DNA of 12,331 bases from a virus (lineage: Duplodnaviria; Heunggongvirae; Uroviricota; Caudoviricetes). The position numbers and the translations under genes are program-made. Positions 1 to 11,068 of the stretch are shown here, piece by piece. The stretch lies in the IMG/VR virus record IMGVR_UViG_2675903368_000015; one strand, written 5' to 3'. The notes under the pieces are model-generated. The model saw only the letters and a program-made list of their open reading frames with translations, made no database searches and had not been told where the DNA came from. Numbering within the stretch: the first letter of the stretch is position 1; every line of letters begins with the position of its first letter.

Positions 1-276
1 GTGGCTTCTGTTTCTATCAGCTGTCCCTCCTGTTCAGCTACTGACGGGGTGGTGCGTAACGGCAAAAGCACCGCCGGACATCAGCGCTATCTCTGCTCTC
101 ACTGCCGTAAAACATGGCAACTGCAGTTCACTTACACCGCTTCTCAACCCGGTACGCACCAGAAAATCATTGATATGGCCATGAATGGCGTTGGATGCCG
201 GGCAACCGCCCGCATTATGGGCGTTGGCCTCAACACGATTTTCCGCCATTTAAAAAACTCAGGCCGCAGTCGGTAA
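1..276 (+). CDS. insA: IS1 InsA (transposition inhibitor, DNA-binding)
   Basis: 91-aa product [39 protein letters not shown]... with Cys-rich N-terminus and HTH region, ending HLKNSGRSR; GTG start, stop at 274..276. Confidence 0.9.
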
Positions 277-698
277 CCTCGCGCATACAGCCGGGCAGTG
301 ACGTCATCGTCTGCGCGGAAATGGACGAACAGTGGGGATACGTCGGGGCTAAATCGCGCCAGCGCTGGCTGTTTTACGCGTATGACAGGCTCCGGAAGAC
401 GGTTGTTGCGCACGTATTCGGTGAACGCACTCTGGCCACACTGGAGCGTCTTCTAAGCCTGCTGTCGGCCTTTGAGGTCGTGGTATGGATGACGGATGGC
501 TGGCCGCTGTATGAATCCCGCCTGAAGGGAAAGCTGCACGTAATCAGCAAGCGTTACACTCAGCGAATTGAGCGGCATAACCTGAATCTGAGACAACATC
601 TGGCAAGGCTGGGACGGAAGTCACTGTCGTTCTCAAAATCGGTGGAGCTGCATGACAAGGTCATCGGGCATTATCTGAACATAAAACACTATCAGTAA
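195..698 (+). CDS. insB: IS1 insB reading frame; the transposase is made as the InsAB' fusion by -1 frameshifting from insA
   Basis: 167-aa ORF in the -1 frame relative to insA, overlapping its 3' end; sequence ...[28 protein letters not shown]...[15 protein letters not shown] matches IS1 InsB. Confidence 0.85.
252..258 (+). promoter_or_regulatory. IS1 programmed -1 ribosomal frameshift heptamer A-AAA-AAC
   Basis: Sequence ttaaaaaactc; in the insA frame the codons are TTA AAA AAC, so the heptamer at 252..258 sits exactly where the insB frame overlaps. This is the known IS1 recoding signal. Confidence 0.8.
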
Positions 699-798: not shown

Positions 799-1293
799 TC
801 AGAACAGTCCTTTAACTGAACTGGCCACGCTGTTAAGGGATGATGTGACCTTATCTTTGAAGCCGGACAGCATATCACTGAACGATGAGGATTGCAGACG
901 CTCCCGCAAATCCTCATCACAGCGTTCAAGGGTCAGTGAAAATTCTATCTTTTTCGCCTTACCGTAGCGATCAAACTCGGAACGGGTCGTATTCGTTTCA
1001 GTCAGTACATACATGCCGTAAATCTGCCCGACACCATCAATCAGAGGCCAGGGGCGTCCTGTATATGCCTGTGTGGTCAGCAACGAAAGCGACACTTCGC
1101 CACCTGTAATTTCAGGATAAAGCACGCCGGAAAGCACGATGCGATCATCACCTGCGCCGATATACTGCCAGCTTGCTGAACGGTTAACGCGTTCATTTTT
1201 CACATGCCGCCAGCTTTTGTTTTGCTGTAACTGCTGATGCGGCAATGTGCGCAGCTCAAAAACAAACATGCCGTAGATCATCATCATGGCCAT
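799..1293 (-). CDS. U: P2 gpU-like tail protein
   Basis: 164-aa product with ...SWRHVKNERVNRSASWQYIGAGDDRIVLSGVLYPEITGG...TGRPWPLIDGVG... resembling P2 gpU as I recall it; lies directly downstream of the tape measure gene on the same strand, as U does in P2. Confidence 0.75.
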   Translation of the reverse strand: MAMMMIYGMFVFELRTLPHQQLQQNKSWRHVKNERVNRSASWQYIGAGDDRIVLSGVLYPEITGGEVSLSLLTTQAYTGRPWPLIDGVGQIYGMYVLTETNTTRSEFDRYGKAKKIEFSLTLERCDEDLRERLQSSSFSDMLSGFKDKVTSSLNSVASSVKGLF

Positions 1294-1299
1294 GACTCC

Positions 1300-4116
1300 T
1301 CAATCTTTATCGTAAAAACTGCCACGTCCGGCACGAGCACGCCGTTCCACCTCTGCCCTGACCATTTCACCGACCAGTTTCGCCAGTTCGCGGGGATTCT
1401 GCGTAACAACGTTATGCAGATGAACATGAATTTCACCGCCAAATCCGGAGACAACAGGCTCCCGGTTACGGGAAGTTGCAGGAACTGATGCCACTGGCGA
1501 TCGTATGGCCTCCGCCACCGGGCGGGAGCTGGCCGCAACAACAGGGACCAGCGCCGGAGGCAGCAGAGCCGGGACCACGGGTGTGATGTTGATTGCGGAA
1601 GCAGGCTTACTGACCTGCGCAATCTTCCGCTCCTGCCACTCCCCACGAACAGCAAGTGCGCGGGGCAGGTTCTTAAAGACAATATCGCCGGGGCCAATAC
1701 GTTTTTTTGTCTCATCAACCAGCTTACCTGTGTTATCAGCAATTTTGCTGAGTCTGCGTAGCGTGCCGGTATTGCTGTCTGTGAGCGGTTTGTTGTCTTT
1801 GGGTTTATCGCCTCCGGTGCCATTGCCATTTTCCGCAGACTTCGGCGGATTGATTTTCGCAATGTCTCCCTGAAACAGAGCAACCTTGTCCTGAAGAATG
1901 GCCGCACGCTGTGCGTCTTCGATTTTCTTTCTCGCCCTTTCCGCTTCATCCGGAAGCACACCGAGTTTTTCAAGTATCCACGCCAGCGTATCCAGCAACA
2001 TTTTTGCAGGCGTCAGAACAAGCTGTAGCGCGCCACCAAGAACGTTACCGAATATCTCGCCAGCACTGGTACATTTATCCAGCGTTTCCTTGCTGGACTC
2101 CATCGGTGACAGCAGCGATTTAAACCAGTTAAACACCTGGCTGATCCCGCTTCCGATTGCGTCAAAAACAGGACCAAACCGTTCAAAGGTTTCACGCAAC
2201 GGGGTCAGCCTTTCCATAATCCCGCCGAACACCCCGGCAAAAAATGCCCTGATGGGATCCCAGTATTTCCAGATAAGAACGGCAGCTCCGGCAAGCGCAG
2301 CCACGATAAGACCAACCGGACTGAACAGCGCCCCGATAGCGCCTCCCAGCAAAGAAACGGAACCCGTCACCATTCCCCACAGCGCAGGCAACACCCTGAC
2401 GACATTCATTGACCGGGTAAGAATGTCAAAACCAAGACGCAGGGTGGCCAGCTTCCCGTAAAGCCCCCCAATAACCAGCGACAACGAGCCAATCGTTGCA
2501 GTCATTGCCAGCAACGCACCGCCTGCTATCAGTAGCTGGCGCGTCAGTACCGGATGGGCCTGCGCCAGCGAGGTGATTTTTTCAAGCACCCGCGTGAGCC
2601 ACTGCGTGACAGAACGCAGCGGACCGTCAACCAGATCACTGATGCGAATACGAAGACCTTCCCATGCGCTATCGAGATTTTTCAGGTCCCCATCAAGATT
2701 ATCGGCCATTACTTTTGCGACGCGATCGGCCTCTCCCCTTGCCCCCTGCAATTCTCTGGTCAGTTTTTGCAGCTCTCCTGAACCAGCCGCCGCAACAAGC
2801 GTCTGCAAACCAACGAACGCCTCTTCTCCGGCGATGTCCTTGAAGAAGGAAACCTGGTCCACCTGTCCGTATTTTTGTGTCGCCTTATAGAGATCAAGCA
2901 GCACATCCTCCATCGGGCGCATTTTGCCTCTGGCGTCAGCAACTGACACTCCCAGCTCTTTCAGCGCATCAGCCGCAGCTTTTGGCGGTGATGCAAGGCG
3001 GGACAGACTTGCGCGCATGGCCGTACCAGCATCGCTTCCGCGAAGACCATTATTGGCAAGCATCCCGGCCATGGCTGCCGCTTCTTCAAGACTGATACCA
3101 AGTTTTGCGGCAACCGGACCGGTATACTTCATGGTTTCGCCCAGCGCGCGTAAATCAGTATTGGTCCGGGTGAATGCCGCTGTCAGCGTATCGCCAACCC
3201 GGTCCATTTGATCGGCTGTCAGGTTGAACTGTGTGAGGATATTGGAGCCTATATCAGCCGTCTCGCCGAGTTCGACGCCACCTGCCAGCGCCATATTAAG
3301 AACACCGGGCAATGCGGCCTGAATGGCCTGCGGAGTAAAACCAGCCATTGCCAGAAAGCTCTGCCCACTGGCGGCATCACTCGCAGTAAACTGTGTTTCA
3401 GAGCCAAGTTTTAACGCCTGCTCACGCAGCGCCTTAAACTGCGGGCTGTTTTTGTCGATTCGCGTCAGTGCCTGAACGCGGGACATCTCTTTGCCGAACC
3501 CGATCGCAGGCTGCAAAAAACGCCCGGCAGCATAGCCGCCCGCCGCTGCCGCACCAATTGCCAGTGCACCACCTGTTTTCAGTTTTCCCGCTGTTTCCTG
3601 CGCGCGCGAATACCGCTCACGCGCCCGCGTTACACGCGCAAGCGCCTGCCGTTCGCGTTCAAGCTGGTTGTTGTACTGTTCGGTGCGTCTGATGGCCTGC
3701 TGGATGGTGTTATCGCTGCCTGTCAGGGAAATGCCGTGGCGTTTCAGCTCTCCGCCAAGCTCCCGCATTTTTTGAATTTCCCGTGTGCGCGATTCATTCA
3801 GGCGTTCAAGCCGGGTGCTTAACTGCTGCATCAGCTTTTGTTGTTTTTCGCTGAGCACTGTACCCGTGCGTTGTAACTGATTAAGGGCGTTAAGCTGGCG
3901 TCGTGCTTTCACGATGCCCGCATCCGCTTTACTGACAGCGTCACGGGCGCGCTCAAATGAACGCGCCTGACGCTCGAGATTTTTGAGCGCCCCCTGCGTT
4001 CGCTGGATGGAGTCACCAAACTGCCCCATCAGGCGGCGGGCGTTTTCGGCAGGCCGGGTCAGCCTGTCAACGGCGCTGAAAGCGACCCGGATATCAAGAG
4101 TCTTCATTATCTGCAT
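1300..4116 (-). CDS. T: Tail tape measure protein (P2 gpT-like)
   Basis: 938-aa ORF with a long coiled-coil-rich N-terminal part (many Q/R/E/L heptad-like stretches), a Gly/Ala-rich hydrophobic central segment, and position between the E/E' chaperone pair and U. Confidence 0.85.
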   Translation of the reverse strand: MQIMKTLDIRVAFSAVDRLTRPAENARRLMGQFGDSIQRTQGALKNLERQARSFERARDAVSKADAGIVKARRQLNALNQLQRTGTVLSEKQQKLMQQLSTRLERLNESRTREIQKMRELGGELKRHGISLTGSDNTIQQAIRRTEQYNNQLERERQALARVTRARERYSRAQETAGKLKTGGALAIGAAAAGGYAAGRFLQPAIGFGKEMSRVQALTRIDKNSPQFKALREQALKLGSETQFTASDAASGQSFLAMAGFTPQAIQAALPGVLNMALAGGVELGETADIGSNILTQFNLTADQMDRVGDTLTAAFTRTNTDLRALGETMKYTGPVAAKLGISLEEAAAMAGMLANNGLRGSDAGTAMRASLSRLASPPKAAADALKELGVSVADARGKMRPMEDVLLDLYKATQKYGQVDQVSFFKDIAGEEAFVGLQTLVAAAGSGELQKLTRELQGARGEADRVAKVMADNLDGDLKNLDSAWEGLRIRISDLVDGPLRSVTQWLTRVLEKITSLAQAHPVLTRQLLIAGGALLAMTATIGSLSLVIGGLYGKLATLRLGFDILTRSMNVVRVLPALWGMVTGSVSLLGGAIGALFSPVGLIVAALAGAAVLIWKYWDPIRAFFAGVFGGIMERLTPLRETFERFGPVFDAIGSGISQVFNWFKSLLSPMESSKETLDKCTSAGEIFGNVLGGALQLVLTPAKMLLDTLAWILEKLGVLPDEAERARKKIEDAQRAAILQDKVALFQGDIAKINPPKSAENGNGTGGDKPKDNKPLTDSNTGTLRRLSKIADNTGKLVDETKKRIGPGDIVFKNLPRALAVRGEWQERKIAQVSKPASAINITPVVPALLPPALVPVVAASSRPVAEAIRSPVASVPATSRNREPVVSGFGGEIHVHLHNVVTQNPRELAKLVGEMVRAEVERRARAGRGSFYDKD

Positions 4117-4360
4117 TCCCGCTGCGAAGTGCCGCCCGCTCGCGCCAGCTAACCACTTCGCCGGGCGTCATCATGAAGATTTCGGCGGGCGACCAGTTAA
4201 AAATGGCGGCAATATCCGCCACCAGATCTTCGATGTGCTCAAAGCACACCAGGGTGATTACGCTGCCGTCTCCTGCACGCTCTTCGCGCCAGAGTCTGGC
4301 TCGCTCATAAAATTTACAGCCACAGCGCACAACTGAATAAAATCGCGTGACGACATTTTT
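4094..4360 (-). CDS. E' extension: -1 frame segment expected to be translated as an E+E' fusion after frameshifting near the end of E
   Basis: The -1 frame is closed by a TAA at 4361..4363 and is open from 4360 down to the stop at 4094..4096, overlapping the first 22 nt of T. The opening coincides with an A7 run on the coding strand (plus T7 at 4356..4362). Same architecture as P2 E/E+E' and lambda G/GT. Confidence 0.55.
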   Translation of the reverse strand, partial: KNVVTRFYSVVRCGCKFYERARLWREERAGDGSVITLVCFEHIEDLVADIAAIFNWSPAEIFMMTPGEVVSWRERAALRSGNADNEDS

Positions 4361-4632
4361 TTAATCATCACTTCATCCAGTCGTGGCGAGGTCACGCGAG
4401 GCAACAGCGTGAACATGGTATCCGCTTTCAGATTCAGCACATCAGACAGCGACAGACCACGCAGGGATCCAGCCTGCTCAATAGCCCCGGTGATCTCCAC
4501 ATACGTGATTTTTTCGCCACCACGCTCAATTGGTCGGGTCAGTTTTACGCCACGTTCGACAGCCATATCCTCACCTGCCGTCACATCATCCGCCACGGTG
4601 TTATTCCGGGTTTCAGTATCGATGTCTTTCAT
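4258..4632 (-). CDS. E: Tail assembly chaperone (P2 gpE-like)
   Basis: 124-aa ORF between the tube gene and the tape measure gene; strong RBS (AAGGAGA) 6 nt upstream of the ATG at 4632; a -1 frame ORF overlaps its 3' end. Confidence 0.7.
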   Translation of the reverse strand: MKDIDTETRNNTVADDVTAGEDMAVERGVKLTRPIERGGEKITYVEITGAIEQAGSLRGLSLSDVLNLKADTMFTLLPRVTSPRLDEVMIKKMSSRDFIQLCAVAVNFMSEPDSGAKSVQETAA

Positions 4633-4687
4633 CAGTTGTCTCCTTTTCAGTCAGAGGCGACGCACTGCGCCGCCTGCATATTACTTA

Positions 4688-5200
4688 TCAGCCAAGCCCA
4701 AGCGCGGAACGGATACGGTCAGGCACAATGTCCTTGCCGTCCTTCCGGTAGATGTGGTTCAACAGGTCGATTTCCCACAGCGGGCGATCGTTAACGCTCA
4801 GCTTGTAGTAGGTGTTTTTGACAGCGTAAGTGTGTGATGTGGCTTCGCCCTGTTTGGCTTCCCCCATATCAATTTCCGTCACACGTCCGCGCATCTCGAT
4901 TTCATACAGATCGCTTTCTGCATCGGTGTAGTATTCACCCGCAAAACGCAGCAGCGTGCCGTCAATCGTGCCGCCATATTTAAGGAACAGCGCACGAACA
5001 GCTCCCCCCATAACAAAACTCGCATCAAGCGCGGAGTCGTCCAGACCGAGATCAATACTTACCGCCCCCATCATGCCACCACCACGATAGCTGTCGGTTT
5101 TGCGCGTCAGTTTGGGCGGCGTGACGGATGTCACTTTACCCACTTCGTTTTCACCATCCACAAACAACGTAAAAAAGCGAAGATGTTTTGGTACAGCCAT
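4688..5200 (-). CDS. FII: Contractile tail tube protein (P2 gpFII-like)
   Basis: 170-aa product; motifs ...PKLTRK...YRGGGMMG...DLGLDD...MRGR..EID.GE.KQGE... resemble P2 FII. The start ATG overlaps the FI stop as TGATG, with a GGGAGGTG RBS inside the FI 3' end. Confidence 0.85.
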   Translation of the reverse strand: MAVPKHLRFFTLFVDGENEVGKVTSVTPPKLTRKTDSYRGGGMMGAVSIDLGLDDSALDASFVMGGAVRALFLKYGGTIDGTLLRFAGEYYTDAESDLYEIEMRGRVTEIDMGEAKQGEATSHTYAVKNTYYKLSVNDRPLWEIDLLNHIYRKDGKDIVPDRIRSALGLG

Positions 5201-6384
5201 CAGGCACCTCCCAGCACCGCAAATGCGGGACCAAAGAATTCATCAGTAAACGTCTGGTAAAGCTCCATGTCTTCCAGTGGCGGAACGGGCGTATATTTGT
5301 AGCGAATACGCACACGCCCCTGACGTAAATCCGTGGTGCCGTTATCCACCACGTCATACCAGCACTCCGCGCCAATCAGTTTCCCGGCAGTAACCAGCGA
5401 ATCCAGTTTTGCCCTGATGGCACTGATAACATCCTTCACGTTCGCAGGCGTCAGTGGACTGTCGATGGTTTCAAACTGCGCTTCCGCAATTGAATCAGCC
5501 AGCACCTGTGCGGTTCGGGTATACACCTCAAAGATGTAGGCGTTCGTTTCCGGTGTGCGGTTGCCCCAGAAGCGGAACCCGTTGCGACGAATAATGGTCG
5601 TGATTTCTTTGTTGTTGAGGCTGTTGGCATCGCTGTCTTCGGCCTGCAACGACCAGAACACATGCCTCGACATCCCCAGCACATTTTTAACCGGAACGTT
5701 GGACAGTGATTTGTGCCACCCCTGCTCATGGTCAATGTACGCACGAAGGCCGCACGCATAGGCAGGCGCGGGGAACGTTTCGTTTTTGCCACTTTTCGGG
5801 TTGTAGGCGATGAAGTCCGGCCATAAGAGCATCACCTCACGTTCGTTGAATTTCTGGCGATAGGTAATCGCCTCAGCCATCGTGTTACAGCCGTGACATG
5901 AGGCATACACAAACGCGCGCAGTTTACCTGCAATCACGCACAGGGATTTTGTTACAGCCTCCGTGTCCAGCTCCGGCGCGGCCAGAATACGCGGACGGTA
6001 TCCGATGCTTTCATCCTGCTCTGCAACAAGCAGCGCATACATCCCCGTATAGCTGCCGTCATCCTCAGAACCACCGATAACCAGTTGATCCTGCGTCTTT
6101 CCGTCTTCTTCTTTGTGTTCAGCCACGCGAACGACGATCACCTTTGTGCTCACCTGGTCTGCGATGGCCTTAAGCGCACGATAAAGCGTCCCCGTTGTTC
6201 CGCATTTTCCCAGCACGTCATTGACGCGGGTCAGCAATGTGGGCTTGTTCAGCGGGAACAGCTTCGCGTCCGCATCATCCGCCGTTGCCACGATACCGAT
6301 AACGCTGGAATCAACATCGTTAATCGCTGTTACCAGGTCGGTATTTTCCGTAACACGGGCACCATGAAAACGAGTTTCACTCAT
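5200..6384 (-). CDS. FI: Contractile tail sheath protein (P2 gpFI-like)
   Basis: 394-aa product; motifs ...FPLNKP...KLRAF...WPDF...EQGWHK.LSNV...IRR.GFRFWGNRT...YTRTAQV...YTPVPPLE... resemble P2 FI. Confidence 0.9.
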   Translation of the reverse strand: MSETRFHGARVTENTDLVTAINDVDSSVIGIVATADDADAKLFPLNKPTLLTRVNDVLGKCGTTGTLYRALKAIADQVSTKVIVVRVAEHKEEDGKTQDQLVIGGSEDDGSYTGMYALLVAEQDESIGYRPRILAAPELDTEAVTKSLCVIAGKLRAFVYASCHGCNTMAEAITYRQKFNEREVMLLWPDFIAYNPKSGKNETFPAPAYACGLRAYIDHEQGWHKSLSNVPVKNVLGMSRHVFWSLQAEDSDANSLNNKEITTIIRRNGFRFWGNRTPETNAYIFEVYTRTAQVLADSIAEAQFETIDSPLTPANVKDVISAIRAKLDSLVTAGKLIGAECWYDVVDNGTTDLRQGRVRIRYKYTPVPPLEDMELYQTFTDEFFGPAFAVLGGA

Positions 6385-6541
6385 AGCTTCAGCCCCTTGT
6401 ATCCGTTAAATGATTCAGCAACAATCATCACCCACCACGCGCGTAATCTCACCCCTGCGCTATTCTCCCGCCACGGCGACAACAAAAAGCAGTAACCCCC
6501 TCCGCACGCACATGCGACCATGCCGCACAGGGAGGGAACAG

Positions 6542-7651
6542 ATGACCGACACCACCATGCAATTGCTCAGTCAGGGCACAGACCCCGTGAAAATGCCGGA
6601 TTTTGATATTCTCGCCGAGGGTAAAACGCTGTCCGGCGTGGCAGAACGCCTGATGAGCCTGTCACTGACCGACAACCGGGGATTTGAGGCGGACCAGCTC
6701 ACCATCACGCTGGATGATGCCGATGACCAGTTGCAGCTACCGCCACGGGGCGCGCGTCTGACGGTTCTCATTGGCTGGAAAGGGGAACCGCTGACAGAAA
6801 AAGGCACTTACATTGTTGATGAAATCGCTCACGAAGGACCGCCGGACAGGCTGACTGTTTCAGCCAGAAGCGCAGATTTTCGGGATGAATTTAATGTTAA
6901 ACGTGAGGCGTCCTGGCATGATGTGACCGTTGAACGTGTGGTATCCGCCATCGCTCATCGGTACAGCCTGAAACCGCAAATCAGCGAAATGCTGATGGAT
7001 ATCGAAATCGACCACGCCGACCAGACTGAAGAAAGCGACATGTCCTTCCTTACGCGCATGGCGGAAATGCTGGGCGCAATCACCACGGTAAAAAGCGGTA
7101 ATCTGTTATTCATCATGCCCGGCGGTGGCGTGAACGCACAGGGCCAGCCGTTGCCATCGTTCGCCATCACACGCAGCAGCGGCGATCGCCATCAGTTCCG
7201 CATTGCTGACCGCGAGGCGTATACGGGGGTACGCGCTTACTGGCTTGATCTTAATTACGGGAAAAAGAAAAAAGTCAGCGTGAAACGCCGCAAACCGCCA
7301 AAACCCAAAAAGGAGAAAAGCAGCAGCCGTGAAGGTGATTATATGGAAGGCGCGGAAGGCAATGTGTTTGTGTTACGCAAGACTTATCAGAACGAGCAGG
7401 CAGCAAGACGCGCAGCGGCGGCAAAGTGGCAGCAGCTACAACGCGGAGCCGCATTATTTTCCATCACGCTGGTGCGTGGACGTGCAGAACTCTACCCCGA
7501 AATGCATGGCACGGTAACAGGATTTAAAAGCGAGATTGATAATCAGGACTGGATTATTGCGAAAGCCGAGCACACCATTGATAACAGCGGCTTTACCACA
7601 CAGCTTGAGCTTGAGGCAAAAATCCCGGAATGGATAGCAGAAACAGAGTGA
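6542..7651 (+). CDS. D: P2 gpD-like tail/baseplate protein (phage late control gene D family)
   Basis: 369 aa from the ATG at 6542, which has a GGAGGG RBS 5 nt upstream (the track ORF extends in frame to 6410 without an obvious RBS). Motifs ...LSLTDNRGFEADQLTITLDDADDQLQLP.RGA...GW.GE...DEI.H.G.PD.L...ARSADFR...ESWHD... and a Lys-rich linker before the C-terminal ...LQRG...FSI.L.RGRA.L.PE....GFK..ID.QDW.I...H...NSGFTT.LELE are typical of this family. Confidence 0.8.
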   Translation: MTDTTMQLLSQGTDPVKMPDFDILAEGKTLSGVAERLMSLSLTDNRGFEADQLTITLDDADDQLQLPPRGARLTVLIGWKGEPLTEKGTYIVDEIAHEGPPDRLTVSARSADFRDEFNVKREASWHDVTVERVVSAIAHRYSLKPQISEMLMDIEIDHADQTEESDMSFLTRMAEMLGAITTVKSGNLLFIMPGGGVNAQGQPLPSFAITRSSGDRHQFRIADREAYTGVRAYWLDLNYGKKKKVSVKRRKPPKPKKEKSSSREGDYMEGAEGNVFVLRKTYQNEQAARRAAAAKWQQLQRGAALFSITLVRGRAELYPEMHGTVTGFKSEIDNQDWIIAKAEHTIDNSGFTTQLELEAKIPEWIAETE

Positions 7652-7771: not shown

Positions 7772-8794
7772 TTAATACGCATTTAATTTAAATTTGTATT
7801 TGCCTTCTATGTAATGGATAAATTCAATTATGCTTTTTTCTATCGCATCTAATATATGAATATATCCATCCCGATTTAAGGTCCTATCCAACTCAAAGTG
7901 ATGAACTATCCCATGTCTATATTGTATGATTTCAGAAATTCGATTCTCAAGAAAATCAACTGATTTTCCAATTCTTTTTTTCTTATAAAGAATCGCTCTC
8001 ACATCTATATCCAGCCACTCTTTATATGCTTTGTTTAGGTGGGTTAAGTTTTGAAAAGTGTAATTTCTTGCAATAACACTTTCTATTGAAATATTTCCTT
8101 TCTCTATCTCAAGCAGAATATCAAAATCAACTTTTTGCTTATACGATGTTCTTTTTGCTATTGCGAAAGGATCGTACTTTATAAGTATTTGAAAAGCTCT
8201 AGAGAAAAAGTATTCAAACATAGCAACCGCAAAAGGTACTAATCCATTATATATAACTCTACTGGGATCCATACATTGCATGTAATCAAAGTATTCGGAT
8301 AAACCGCCATCTTCCGGTAGGTTTAATTTAATAGAAGGTTCAGGTAAGGCATGTTTAACAGCGGAAATCTCATGATGGACATGATTAAATATTGAAGAAA
8401 TGCCACGACTGATCGGACTACTAGAATCCTTCCATAGAGGAGCGTACCTATTTTTCCCATAATCACCTATAAGTGTTCCACCAAAAAGACTCCTTGCGCC
8501 TTTTAGAACATCATTAAGCATTTTTACATCATGCCAACTAGCGCTATATAAATTACGCACATGCAATGCCCATTTATTACCAGATATGTGTAATTCGTCA
8601 TTTGAAACAGGATATATATCAGCCGAAACTCCATCTGTAGATTTGAAGTCCGTATCATCAAACCAAGAGTAATTCAACGTTCCTTGGGGCCATTCCCTCA
8701 AATGTTTACACCTTTTAAAACCTAAATTTTCAAGGTAATTTTTAAGTTCGTTTCTAGTTGCTTTTTTAGGGTACAGCGTTATATCTCTTCCCAT
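7772..8794 (-). CDS. Hypothetical protein, 340 aa, AT-rich inserted gene between D and ogr; function unknown
   Basis: Long uninterrupted ORF on the strand opposite D and ogr; AGGTG RBS about 8 nt upstream of the ATG at 8794; base composition visibly AT-rich compared with the flanking tail genes. No family recognised by eye; contains RHGIVHH near the C-terminus. Confidence 0.75.
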   Translation of the reverse strand: MGRDITLYPKKATRNELKNYLENLGFKRCKHLREWPQGTLNYSWFDDTDFKSTDGVSADIYPVSNDELHISGNKWALHVRNLYSASWHDVKMLNDVLKGARSLFGGTLIGDYGKNRYAPLWKDSSSPISRGISSIFNHVHHEISAVKHALPEPSIKLNLPEDGGLSEYFDYMQCMDPSRVIYNGLVPFAVAMFEYFFSRAFQILIKYDPFAIAKRTSYKQKVDFDILLEIEKGNISIESVIARNYTFQNLTHLNKAYKEWLDIDVRAILYKKKRIGKSVDFLENRISEIIQYRHGIVHHFELDRTLNRDGYIHILDAIEKSIIEFIHYIEGKYKFKLNAY

Positions 8795-8985: not shown

Positions 8986-9246
8986 ATGTTCCGTTGTCCG
9001 CTTTGTGGCGCATCTGCCCGTATCCGCACAAGTCGTCCGGAAAATGATTCAAACACCGTGCGGCAAAAGTATTACCAGTGTAACAATCTGGAATGCGGCG
9101 TATGCTTCTCAACACTGGAAGCTTTCCATAAATTCACATCGAAACACGCCTCCGGCGTTCACTCTTCAGAAGGTATCCCGTGGCATGAGCTACCAGCTTC
9201 ACACAGGGGAAACAATCAGATGAGTTTGCCTTTACCTCAGAATTAA
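8986..9246 (+). CDS. ogr: Ogr/Delta-family zinc-finger late transcription activator
   Basis: 86-aa product MFRCPLCGASARIRTSRPENDSNTVRQKYYQCNNLECGVCF... with the Cys-X2-Cys ... Cys-X4-Cys pattern and overall similarity to P2 Ogr (MFHCPLC...ARTSR...YHQCQN..C...F...); AAGGGAGG RBS 5 nt upstream. Confidence 0.8.
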   Translation: MFRCPLCGASARIRTSRPENDSNTVRQKYYQCNNLECGVCFSTLEAFHKFTSKHASGVHSSEGIPWHELPASHRGNNQMSLPLPQN

Positions 9247-9837: not shown

Positions 9838-10170
9838 ATGGCATTAATCAAATGTCCTGAATGCCAGAAAGAGGTGAGCGATTCAGCATTGTATTGCCCT
9901 GCTTGCGGTAAACAAATAAAAAAACTTAAGCGTTCATTTTTTGGAAAGCTCATTAAGTGGATATTTATATTATTTAATATTTTTATGATCTATACGCTTT
10001 TAGTTGGACTGGGAGGCACTAGTGAAATAATAAATAATGCTACATCCGATGCCGAAAAAGCCGGTGCAGTTATTGGTACAGGCTTAGGTTTAATTACCAT
10101 TGGAAGTTTATGGGTTATTGGCGATATCATTATCGGAATTTTAGTATTTCTTACTAAACCAAAAGGATAA
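9838..10170 (+). CDS. Small membrane protein with N-terminal zinc-ribbon (CPEC...CPAC) and two predicted transmembrane helices
   Basis: 110-aa product; N-terminal CPECQKEVSDSALYCPACGK, then two long hydrophobic segments (LIKWIFILFNIFMIYTLLVGLG and AVIGTGLGLITIGSLWVIGDIIIGILVFL); AAAGGAGG RBS 8 nt upstream; AT-rich. Confidence 0.7.
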   Translation: MALIKCPECQKEVSDSALYCPACGKQIKKLKRSFFGKLIKWIFILFNIFMIYTLLVGLGGTSEIINNATSDAEKAGAVIGTGLGLITIGSLWVIGDIIIGILVFLTKPKG

Positions 10171-10174
10171 CAAA

Positions 10175-11068
10175 ATGAAAAATATAATTTTTTCTATAGG
10201 TGCATCATTTATATCAATTAGTGTACTGCCTGTTCACGCAGCAACTGAACATAATAACTTCAATGCAGTACTCCAGTGCCGAGCAATAGAAAATAATAAA
10301 GACAGACTTTCTTGTTACGATAAGTCAATACAACCGACTCGAACGAAAGTTGCTGAAAAATTCGAAAGCAGAGATCAATGCCCTGATGAGAAAGATGATG
10401 ACAGACGTTTATCTTGTTATGATCGTTTTTTTTCTCCAACATTTACTCCATCTGTAAACTCAAAATCTAAAACGGAAAAGCCAGTAACAACAGAGGCTCA
10501 GCAACCAAATCTTTCTGAGATATCTAAATGCCGAGCAGAAAATGATAAAGAAGCCAGACTAAACTGCTACGATAAACTATTCCCACAGGATAAAGCTGTT
10601 CAAGCTGAATCAAAATTAGAGAAAGCCACAGATGTAGGAAAATGGCACACATCCATTACTACATCGCCAATTGATGATTCGAAAAATGTAATTTTATCGT
10701 TAGAAAGTGATGATTATATCAGAACTCCATTTGGAGAAGCGGTTACTCCCACTCTGTTTATAGCTTGCCGAGAAAAGAAAACCGAAGTATTTCTTAGTTG
10801 GGATGTATATTTAGGCCTTGAACAAACCAGCATGCTTTATCGTCTTGATAAACAGAAAGCAGTTGAGCGAAACTGGCTAGTATCTACAGATACAAAGGCT
10901 GTTTTTTATAAAGGTAATGACATTGATTTCATCCGAAAACTAGCCAACTCAAACAAAATGTATACAAAAATAACTCCTTATAATGAGAGCCCTGTAAGTG
11001 CAACTTTCAATTTAAACGGCCTGTCAAACGCGCTAAAACCACTTCAAGCTGCTTGTAACTGGAAATAG
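10175..11068 (+). CDS. Secreted protein with three tandem Cys-pair repeats and a C-terminal domain of unknown function
   Basis: 297-aa product; start is 4 nt after the upstream stop, with an AAAAGGA RBS (operon-like); N-terminal signal peptide MKNIIFSIGASFISISVLPVHA with AXA-type cleavage site and no lipobox; three repeats of C-x9-RL-x-CYD (CRAIENNKDRLSCYD, CPDEKDDDRRLSCYD, CRAENDKEARLNCYD); C-terminal Cys pair (IACREK ... AACNWK). Confidence 0.75.
   Translation: MKNIIFSIGASFISISVLPVHAATEHNNFNAVLQCRAIENNKDRLSCYDKSIQPTRTKVAEKFESRDQCPDEKDDDRRLSCYDRFFSPTFTPSVNSKSKTEKPVTTEAQQPNLSEISKCRAENDKEARLNCYDKLFPQDKAVQAESKLEKATDVGKWHTSITTSPIDDSKNVILSLESDDYIRTPFGEAVTPTLFIACREKKTEVFLSWDVYLGLEQTSMLYRLDKQKAVERNWLVSTDTKAVFYKGNDIDFIRKLANSNKMYTKITPYNESPVSATFNLNGLSNALKPLQAACNWK

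What the first reader, a model, noticed from the sequence alone, without database searches (positions are those of the whole stretch)
4354..4363. Candidate programmed -1 frameshift site for the E/E' tail assembly chaperone pair at an A7 run
The E frame reads ATT AAA AAA ATG across a run of seven A on the coding strand (plus T7 at 4356..4362). The -1 frame has a TAA at 4361..4363 and is then open for 88 codons to a stop at 4094..4096, just inside the T gene. This is the conserved arrangement of tail assembly chaperones (P2 E/E+E', lambda G/GT), where a minority of ribosomes slip to make a C-terminally extended product needed for tape-measure assembly. The codon alignment is not a textbook X-XXY-YYZ heptamer, so the exact slip mechanism is uncertain.
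Basis: partly seen in the sequence, partly recalled or inferred. Interest (0 to 1): 0.4.

Follow-up and report, generated by a model that had tools for sequence, protein, structure and literature searches.

The report

Summary
The sequence facts are correct. On the minus strand, gene E (4632..4258) reads ATT AAA AAA ATG across an A7 run (4362..4356). The -1 frame has TAA at 4363..4361, then runs 88 codons to TGA at 4096..4094, and carries a Phage_P2_GpE domain.

The window is a P88-like (Xuanwuvirus) prophage tail operon, so an E/E' -1 frameshift is expected. The A7 run is not the conserved site:
- The mapped P2 site (GG T TTT TTG) aligns with window AAT TTT ATG (4314..4306).
- All 158 usable related loci carry an in-frame X_XXY_YYZ heptamer there, mostly T_TTT_TTG.
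- P88-clade relatives have a -1-frame TGA between the A7 run and that site.
- More distant relatives have no A run.
- Amino-acid conservation switches from the 0 frame to the -1 frame at the heptamer.

In the window clade TTG became ATG. The overlapping A_AAT_TTT (4315..4309) remains and is the only canonical heptamer in the overlap; its motif class was measured as efficient in E. coli. The predicted products are E (124 aa) and E+E' (179 aa). This is a known mechanism with a minor site variant, and public records mis-annotate E' as a separate gene. Nothing was tested experimentally.

The parts
4258..4632 (-). Gene E: tail assembly chaperone, 0 frame, 124 aa (ATG 4632, TAA 4260..4258).
   Evidence: ORF and translation. 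phrog_103 'tail protein' E=1e-36. Pfam Phage_TAC_7 is weak (20.6 bits, cutoff 25) over residues 29-109. 35% identity to the P2 E+E' product over the fusion alignment.
4309..4315 (-). Proposed slippery heptamer A_AAT_TTT. The 0-frame codons are AAT (Asn107) in the P site and TTT (Phe108) in the A site; after a -1 slip they re-pair to AAA and TTT. This is the best-supported -1 frameshift site.
   Evidence: It is the only in-frame X_XXY_YYZ heptamer in the E/E' overlap. It overlaps the position homologous to the mapped P2 T_TTT_TTG. An in-frame heptamer occurs at this spot in 158/158 related loci. A_AA.U_UU.U falls within the H_HH.U_UU.Y class, which was listed among the most efficient in E. coli (PMC4066793). 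Exact 80-mer in 513 E. coli genomes; one known exception among the 599 window-type genomes.
4306..4312 (-). Exact positional homologue of the P2 T_TTT_TTG heptamer. Here it reads T_TTT_ATG: the ancestral TTG (Leu) has become ATG (Met), which breaks the T6G motif.
   Evidence: Alignments A1 and A2. Only the window clade (9 of 135 distinct sequences) has ATG; outgroups have TTG, TTA, TTC or TTT.
4094..4360 (-). -1 frame ORF (E'), 88 sense codons plus TGA 4096..4094. The part predicted to be translated is 4309..4097 (71 codons), as the C-terminal extension of E+E'.
   Evidence: Translations. -1-frame amino-acid conservation begins at the heptamer. phrog_1756 matches fusion residues 104-177, E=1.8e-38.
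4115..4222 (-). Phage_P2_GpE domain (PF06528) within E', residues 47-82 of the -1 ORF.
   Evidence: Pfam 46.3 bits against a cutoff of 23, E=2.9e-12.
4356..4362 (-). At most it is a weak, clade-specific secondary slip-prone tetramer (A_AAA).
   Evidence: Present. Not a heptamer. Not enriched over chance. Absent from relatives, or followed there by a -1 stop. No downstream structure (z=+1.48).
4247..4249 (-). GTG used by public annotations as the start of a free-standing 51-aa 'GpE family phage tail protein'. Probably an annotation artefact.
   Evidence: Annotated so in NC_049391, PV340564, PP925824, KP063541 and RefSeq E. coli genomes. The nearest SD-like AGGAG (4274..4270) is 20 nt upstream. 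The Klebsiella relative has no start codon there. -1-frame conservation extends upstream of it.
1300..4116 (-). Gene T, tape measure protein (938 aa from ATG 4116; public records start at ATG 4107). It overlaps the end of E'.
   Evidence: Pfam PhageMin_Tail 1.6e-56; annotations.
4688..5200 (-). Tail tube gene (FII-like), immediately upstream of E.
   Evidence: Pfam Phage_tube 2.1e-45.

Best explanation
The window carries the FI-FII-E-E'-T-U tail operon of a P88-like (Xuanwuvirus, Peduoviridae) prophage on the minus strand.

Most ribosomes translating E stop at TAA 4260..4258 and make the 124-aa tail assembly chaperone. A minority slip back one base when tRNA-Asn (AAU, 4314..4312) sits in the P site and tRNA-Phe (UUU, 4311..4309) in the A site of the heptamer A_AAU_UUU (4315..4309). 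They re-pair to AAA and UUU, then read UAU GAG CGA... in the -1 frame to TGA 4096..4094. The product is a 179-aa E+E' fusion (...CAVAVNF|YERARLW...) whose C-terminus is the GpE domain.

By analogy with P2 E/E+E' and lambda G/GT, the E parts coat the tape measure protein. The rarer E' extension recruits the tail tube protein, so the slip frequency sets the ratio of the two products.

Shown here: the gene order, the domains, homology of the site to the mapped P2 site, family-wide conservation of a heptamer at that spot, and the switch of selective constraint at that spot.

Inferred: that slippage occurs in this clade at A_AAU_UUU after the ancestral T_TTT_TTG was lost, how efficient it is, and the protein functions.
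For: (1) Context. Sheath, tube, E, E', tape measure and U lie in P2 order. The region is 99.3% identical to Xuanwuvirus P88_4B11 and Citrobacter phage Shae_phiSM.

(2) The -1 ORF carries Phage_P2_GpE at 46 bits.

(3) The P2 record marks the -1 shift at GG T TTT TTG TCG. In the protein alignment, P2 'GFL' aligns with window 'NF(M)'.

(4) All 158 loci with a normal-length E (relatives plus the window itself) have an in-frame X_XXY_YYZ heptamer in the E/E' overlap: T_TTT_TTG in 111, TTTTTT[A/C/T] in 11, only C_CCT_TTC in 20, only A_AAT_TTT in 16 (the window clade).

(5) In 135 distinct sequences the codon before Phe always ends in T. In 37 of them the last -1-frame stop lies 5 or fewer codons upstream. 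In L117 it abuts the heptamer directly (GGT TAA TTT TTT G).

(6) Constraint switches at the site, window against P88:
- A7 run to heptamer: 2/15 amino-acid changes in the 0 frame, 10/14 in the -1 frame.
- Heptamer to E stop: 8/16 in the 0 frame, 3/15 in the -1 frame.
The same pattern holds against L117.

(7) A_AAT_TTT is the only canonical heptamer in the overlap. R_RR.U_UU.Y and H_HH.U_UU.Y motifs are among the most efficient -1 shifters measured in E. coli, whereas the A_AA.A tetramer is the weakest of the six active tetramers (PMC4066793).

(8) The ATG variant is not decay. The exact 80-mer is in 513 complete E. coli genomes and near-exact in 599. It is also in phiSM, reported as a fully functional plaque-forming phage (PMC6456863; record OR565851).

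(9) P2 E' lacks its own ribosome binding site and is made as a fusion through the T6G sequence (as summarised in PMC3931495).
Against: - No experiment exists on this phage or clade.
- The ancestral T6G motif is broken here (T_TTT_ATG), so use of the upstream register A_AAT_TTT is inferred, not observed.
- The P-site re-pairing AAU to AAA gives a wobble mismatch.
- No conserved stimulatory RNA structure lies downstream. The window hairpin scores only z=-1.7, and RNAalifold finds 0 pairs across the subfamily.
- No upstream SD-like stimulator was seen.
- In this clade alone the -1 frame is open back to the A7 run, so a contribution from that run cannot be excluded by sequence.
- One genome of 599 (2015C-3108) carries AAC instead of AAT, which destroys the heptamer. 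It is a singleton and could be a dead prophage.
Confidence: 0.8

Rival explanations
1. One reading: the -1 slip occurs on the A7 run (4362..4356) by tRNA-Lys slippage. The resulting E+E' fusion would have 16 residues between the run and the heptamer read in the -1 frame (NVVTRFYSVVRCGCKF).
For: In the window clade the -1 frame is open from just after TAA 4363..4361. A_AAA is a measurable though weak slippery tetramer in E. coli. The T6G heptamer used by relatives is broken here. One natural variant lacks A_AAT_TTT but keeps the A7 run.
Against: - The register is T_AAA_AAA, not a heptamer.
- P88-clade relatives keep the A7 run but have a -1-frame TGA six codons later.
- L117/118 (CTT AAG CGC), the Klebsiella relative (AAC GAA) and the Enterobacter relative (AAT GAA) have no run.
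- An A6+ run accessible to the -1 frame occurs only in the window clade, 9 of 135 distinct sequences.
- Between the run and the heptamer the 0 frame is conserved (2/15 changes) and the -1 frame is not (10/14).
- A slip here would replace the last ~16 residues of the region matched by Phage_TAC_7 (residues 29-109) and phrog_103.
- The sequence downstream folds worse than shuffles (z=+1.48).
- A7 runs are at chance frequency.
Confidence: 0.07
2. Database model: E' is a separate 51-aa gene started at GTG 4249 ('GpE family phage tail protein'), with no frameshift.
For: It is annotated this way in GenBank and RefSeq phage records and in about 1370 RefSeq E. coli genomes.
Against: - There is no SD at a usable distance; AGGAG is 20 nt upstream.
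- The Klebsiella relative has no start codon at that position, and its annotators called no gene there.
- P2 E' has no ribosome binding site and was shown to be made as a fusion (PMC3931495).
- -1-frame amino-acid conservation begins at the heptamer, 19 codons upstream of the GTG.
- phrog_1756 aligns from fusion residue 104.
- The invariant in-frame heptamer across 158 loci would have no explanation.
Confidence: 0.04
3. Loss of function: the TTG to ATG change killed the frameshift site, and the window-clade prophages no longer make E+E' (defective tails). Alternatively the extension is supplied by transcriptional slippage on the A7/T7 run.
For: The canonical T6G is broken. This particular copy has an IS1 inserted just after gene U. 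Homopolymer runs of A are known substrates for RNA polymerase slippage (PMC4066793).
Against: - The identical sequence is present in 513-599 complete E. coli genomes with E, E' and T intact.
- It is also in phiSM, which forms plaques.
- E' remains under purifying selection in this clade against P88 (3/53 amino-acid changes from 12 nt differences).
- To my knowledge, efficient transcriptional slippage normally needs runs of about 9 or more bases; seven is short.
Confidence: 0.04

Closest known systems
Bacteriophage P2 E / E+E' programmed -1 frameshift (Christie et al. 2002, J Bacteriol 184:6522; annotated in NC_001895)
   Same: Same gene order (FI, FII, E, E', T, U). E and E' are homologous: the fusion is 35% identical to the P2 product and carries the Phage_P2_GpE domain. 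The -1 ORF has no start of its own and overlaps the 3' end of E and the 5' end of T. The slip site is at the homologous x-Phe-Leu position.
   Different: P2 uses T_TTT_TTG. The window has T_TTT_ATG at that position, so it must use the overlapping A_AAT_TTT one codon upstream. E is longer (124 against 91 aa), with an N-terminal extension and a 16-residue tail after the site. The E/E' overlap is 100 nt here, against 34 nt counted and 37 nt quoted for P2 in PMC3931495. The short hairpin 3' of the P2 site is absent.
Escherichia phage P88 and other Xuanwuvirus members (closest sister clade)
   Same: 87-90% nucleotide identity across E/E'. Same A7 run, same AAT TTT codons, same E'.
   Different: P88 keeps A_AAT_TTT_TTG, so both registers are available, and has a -1-frame TGA between the A7 run and the site. 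The window clade has ATG and no such stop.
Lambda G/GT tail assembly chaperone frameshift (Levin et al. 1993; Xu, Hendrix, Duda 2004, 2013, 2014)
   Same: Same logic and position. [quoted passage not shown] A fixed low ratio of extended product is needed for tail assembly (PMC5009743).
   Different: No sequence similarity. The lambda slip site is G_GGA_AAG. Efficiency is ~3-4% in lambda against 2- to 3-fold higher in P2-like phages.
Klebsiella Reipivirus-type E/E' (e.g. ST16-OXA48phi5.4)
   Same: A second lineage in which the T6 run is interrupted (CCT TTC TTG), while a canonical heptamer one codon upstream (C_CCT_TTC) remains. This parallels the window's A_AAT_TTT.
   Different: Different heptamer. 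E is shorter (105 aa). About 52% identity to the window fusion.
IS1 insA-insB' A_AAA_AAC and dnaX A_AAA_AAG frameshifts (A-run -1 frameshift sites)
   Same: An IS1 copy with its TT A_AAA_AAC motif lies in this same window at 252..258.
   Different: Those sites are in the X_XXZ_ZZN register and are conserved. The A7 run in E is in the T_AAA_AAA register and is not conserved as a usable site.

Membership tests
P2-type E/E+E' tail assembly chaperone -1 frameshift | Located between the tail tube gene and the tape measure gene of a contractile-tail operon. | tested here: met
   Tube 5200..4688, E 4632..4258, E' to 4094, T from 4116/4107.
P2-type E/E+E' tail assembly chaperone -1 frameshift | The upstream ORF is homologous to P2 gpE (tail assembly chaperone family). 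| tested here: met
   phrog_103 E=1e-36. It aligns with P2 E through the conserved AG(S/T)LRG...R(V/M)T(S/A)P...D(F/L) blocks. Pfam Phage_TAC_7 alone is below its cutoff (20.6 against 25 bits).
P2-type E/E+E' tail assembly chaperone -1 frameshift | The -1 frame extension carries the GpE (E') domain. | tested here: met
   PF06528 at 46.3 bits against a cutoff of 23; phrog_1756 1.8e-38.
P2-type E/E+E' tail assembly chaperone -1 frameshift | E' has no translation start of its own and overlaps the 3' end of E in the -1 frame. | tested here: met
   100-nt overlap. The only candidate start, GTG 4249, lacks an SD, is not conserved, and lies downstream of the onset of -1-frame conservation.
P2-type E/E+E' tail assembly chaperone -1 frameshift | T6G (T_TTT_TTG) slippery sequence at the x-Phe-Leu position. 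| tested here: not met
   The window reads T_TTT_ATG at 4312..4306. 111 of 158 loci have T_TTT_TTG.
P2-type E/E+E' tail assembly chaperone -1 frameshift | Some canonical in-frame X_XXY_YYZ heptamer at the homologous spot within the overlap. | tested here: met
   A_AAT_TTT at 4315..4309, overlapping the P2-homologous heptamer by 4 nt. 158/158 loci have such a heptamer.
P2-type E/E+E' tail assembly chaperone -1 frameshift | Purifying selection switches from the 0 frame to the -1 frame at the slip site. | tested here: met
   Amino-acid changes, 0 frame against -1 frame: 2/15 against 10/14 upstream of the heptamer, 8/16 against 3/15 downstream.
P2-type E/E+E' tail assembly chaperone -1 frameshift | The fusion protein is demonstrated and is essential for tail assembly. 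| not testable with these tools
   Shown for P2 only (annotation; literature summary).
   The 0 frame is AT T_AAA_AAA ATG; only the tetramer A_AAA fits.
   There is a TGA six codons downstream in the P88 clade, and no A run in L117, the Klebsiella or the Enterobacter relatives.
   The fold of 4355..4290 is weaker than shuffles (z=+1.48). No SD-like sequence is read upstream.

The most novel reading that the evidence does not exclude
In the window clade (about 600 complete E. coli genomes) the ancestral T_TTT_TTG site was lost through TTG to ATG, and frameshifting was rescued by a change of slip site. The modest version is a one-codon move to A_AAU_UUU. The bolder version is that the A7 run, newly connected to E' by loss of the intervening -1 stop, now contributes. 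That would give two E+E' isoforms, or a relocated site, and so a natural example of a programmed frameshift site migrating within a gene.
Probability: 0.1. Interest if true: 0.4.

Novelty: new member of a known kind. Interest (0 to 1): 0.22.

Why it matters
It matters mainly for annotation. This prophage family is in about a quarter of complete E. coli genomes (1370 of 5426). Its E' is recorded everywhere as a free-standing 51-aa 'GpE family' gene, with no frameshift. The correct model is a 179-aa E+E' fusion, join(4632..4309, 4309..4094) on the minus strand.

There is also a small mechanistic point. Two lineages that lost the T6G motif (the window clade and Klebsiella Reipivirus) both keep a canonical heptamer one codon upstream. 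This suggests selection acts on having some efficient heptamer at that spot rather than on T6G itself. The finding opens no long-standing question.

Tried and rejected
- Downstream stimulatory RNA. Folds of the sequence 3' of the heptamer (z=-1.7, not conserved in P88) and 3' of the A7 run (z=+1.48) show nothing convincing. RNAalifold on 13 diverse subfamily members found 0 pairs. The strong hairpin GUGUGCUUUGAGCACAU (about 4249..4233) starts about 60 nt beyond the heptamer, too far to stimulate slippage there, and is absent from the Klebsiella and Enterobacter relatives.
- Within-clade polymorphism as a way to separate the A7 run from the heptamer. The clade is too uniform: 513 of 599 genomes have the identical 80-mer. 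The variants seen were one synonymous GCT to GCA and one singleton AAT to AAC.
- NCBIfam gave no hit for E or for the fusion.
- A sequence search of the PDB gave no relative.
- The Christie 2002 paper could not be read. The P2 site was taken from the NC_001895 annotation and from the summary in PMC3931495.
- Transcriptional slippage was considered and rated unlikely, because the run is only 7 bases and is not conserved.
- Structure prediction was not run. It would not discriminate between the two sites better than the frame-specific conservation already does.

Full report
**What is there**

On the minus strand the window carries a contractile-tail operon:
- sheath, 6384..5200
- tube, 5200..4688
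- a 124-aa ORF, 4632..4258 (E)
- tape measure, 4116..1300 (T)
- gpU, 1293..799

The E frame reads ATG ATT AAA AAA ATG TCG across an A7 run at 4362..4356. A7 runs are not unusual in this window: 9 matches against 5.3 +/- 3.1 expected.

**Identity**

The region is 99.3% identical to Xuanwuvirus P88_4B11 and to Citrobacter phage Shae_phiSM. It is 87-90% identical to phage P88 and its close relatives, all Peduoviridae (P2-like).
- E matches phrog_103 (1e-36) and, weakly, Pfam Phage_TAC_7.
- The -1 ORF carries Phage_P2_GpE (46 bits, cutoff 23) at its residues 47-82.
- Public records either omit E' or call it a separate 51-aa gene from GTG 4249. None models a frameshift.

**Where the P2 site maps**

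The P2 record marks the experimentally established -1 shift at GG T TTT TTG TCG. PMC3931495 summarises it as the conserved T6G slippery sequence of P2-like phages and notes that E' lacks a ribosome binding site. In an alignment of conceptual E+E' fusions, P2 'G-F-L' aligns with window 'N-F-(M)'. That is AAT TTT ATG at 4314..4306, 16 codons downstream of the A7 run.

**Comparative test**

I collected 160 related loci from bacterial genomes and IMG/VR. Among the 158 loci scored (these plus the phage records and the window itself) that have a normal-length E, every one has an in-frame X_XXY_YYZ heptamer in the E/E' overlap at this x-Phe-Leu spot:

| Heptamer in the overlap | Loci |
|---|---|
| T_TTT_TTG | 111 |
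| TTTTTT[A/C/T] | 11 |
| only C_CCT_TTC (Klebsiella Reipivirus type, CCT TTC TTG) | 20 |
| only A_AAT_TTT (window clade, AAT TTT ATG) | 16 |

Among 135 distinct sequences:
- The codon before Phe ends in T in all 135.
- The last -1-frame stop lies 5 or fewer codons upstream of the Phe codon in 37. In L117 it abuts the heptamer directly (GGT TAA TTT TTT G).
- An A6+ run that the -1 frame can reach exists only in the window clade.

P88, PhiR44_2 and Chuche keep the A7 run but have a -1-frame TGA six codons after it. L117, the Klebsiella and the Enterobacter relatives have no A run.

**Selection signature**

The table counts amino-acid changes in each frame, window against P88.

| Segment | 0 frame | -1 frame |
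|---|---|---|
| A7 run to heptamer | 2/15 | 10/14 |
| Heptamer to E stop | 8/16 | 3/15 |
| E stop to E' stop | 9/53 | 3/53 |

The same pattern holds against L117. Coding constraint therefore changes frame at the heptamer, not at the A7 run. That the -1 frame is open back to the A7 run in the window clade follows from two substitutions that are synonymous in the 0 frame (CGC GAT here, CGT GAC in P88).

**Mechanism in this clade**

The window clade has lost T6G (TTG became ATG; derived, since all outgroups have TTG, TTA, TTC or TTT). It retains GTA AAT TTT, so A_AAT_TTT (4315..4309) is the only canonical heptamer in the overlap.

Systematic measurements in E. coli place H_HH.U_UU.Y motifs, and specifically the R_RR.U_UU.Y exceptions, among the efficient -1 shifters. 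The tetramer hierarchy there is A_AA.G >> U_UU.C > U_UU.U > C_CC.U = C_CC.C > A_AA.A, so A_AA.A is the weakest active tetramer (PMC4066793).

The predicted event has these steps:
1. tRNA-Asn (P site) and tRNA-Phe (A site) slip back one base.
2. Base 4309 is read twice.
3. The product is a 179-aa fusion, ...AVNF|YERARLW...NEDS.

No stimulatory RNA structure is evident or conserved.

The variant is clearly viable. The exact 80-mer is in 513 complete E. coli genomes (599 near-exact). The same sequence is in phiSM, reported as a functional plaque-forming phage (PMC6456863).

One genome (2015C-3108) has AAC in place of AAT. It is a singleton that would make a natural test case.

**Function**

This is inferred by homology with P2 and by analogy with lambda G/GT (PMC5009743). 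E and the E part of the fusion bind the tape measure protein. The E' extension recruits tube subunits. The slip frequency fixes the ratio of the two products.

**Verdict**

- The general interpretation (an E/E' -1 frameshift) is supported.
- The proposed site (the A7 run) is not supported; the best-supported site is A_AAT_TTT at 4315..4309.
- This is a new member of a well-known kind with a minor site variant. Its main value is correcting a widespread annotation.
- No step has been tested experimentally in this clade.

Noticed in passing
window 1..~713 (+), motif at 252..258: An IS1 copy, cut by the window edge, lies directly 3' of gene U (insA 1..276; insB' 195..698, DDE_Tnp_IS1 3e-75). Its classic -1 frameshift motif TT A_AAA_AAC sits in the insA frame at 252..258, so the window does contain a genuine A-run frameshift site, just not in E.
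   Followed up: partly
window 4247..4249 (-) and about 1370 RefSeq E. coli genomes: E' is annotated across databases as a free-standing 51-aa 'GpE family phage tail protein' starting at GTG 4249, with no SD and no frameshift modelled. This is a systematic annotation artefact for this prophage family.
   Followed up: yes
L173 (E. coli 2015C-3108, NZ_CP027307.1:1248353-1248552): It is the only one of 599 window-type genomes with the 80-mer carrying GTA AAC TTT ATG. The synonymous AAT to AAC change destroys the A_AAT_TTT heptamer and leaves only the A7 run as a slip-prone site. It may be a dead prophage, or a natural test of the site.
   Followed up: partly
L006, L026, L127-L148 (Klebsiella Reipivirus-type loci): A second lineage has an interrupted T run (CCT TTC TTG) but keeps the canonical heptamer C_CCT_TTC one codon upstream, parallel to the window clade.
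   Followed up: partly
L010 2686..2700 (P2) and P2-type loci: A short hairpin (CGCCG AACU CGGUG; the CCGAnnnTCGG pattern) begins 1-4 nt 3' of the T6G heptamer in many P2-type relatives. It could be a stimulator, or simply reflect the conserved dual coding. It is absent in the Xuanwuvirus/Reipivirus subfamily.
   Followed up: no
window about 4233..4249 (-): A perfect 7-bp hairpin (extendable to 9 bp), GUGUGCU-UUG-AGCACAU, lies inside E' (coding VCFEHI). It is conserved in Xuanwuvirus but not in more distant relatives, and starts about 60 nt 3' of the heptamer, too far to be a frameshift stimulator.
   Followed up: partly
L091 (IMGVR_UViG_2526164662_000048): A relative with a one-base indel inside E' (the frame changes within ...HIED|LVADI...). 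This is either a pseudogene or a sequencing error.
   Followed up: no
PMC6456863 against OR565851.1 (L001): The phiSM paper describes its virions as siphovirus-like with non-contractile tails. The record named Shae_phiSM encodes a P2-type sheath, tube and E/E' that are identical to the window's E/E' and 99.3% identical over 3900..4900.
   Followed up: no
window 7772..8794 (-), 10175..11068 (+), 9838..10170 (+): Likely cargo genes next to the tail and Ogr module: a 340-aa ORF with a weak HEPN (RiboL-PSP) match, a VasI-like (type VI secretion) 297-aa ORF, and a zinc-ribbon protein. The gpD hub gene (6410..7651) is divergent from the sheath gene, and Ogr/Delta lies at 8986..9246.
   Followed up: no
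L171 (E. coli CMZE046): A mosaic E gene: window-type N-terminal part with a P88-type 3' part (T6G plus the -1 TGA). This shows recombination between the two clades within E.
   Followed up: no
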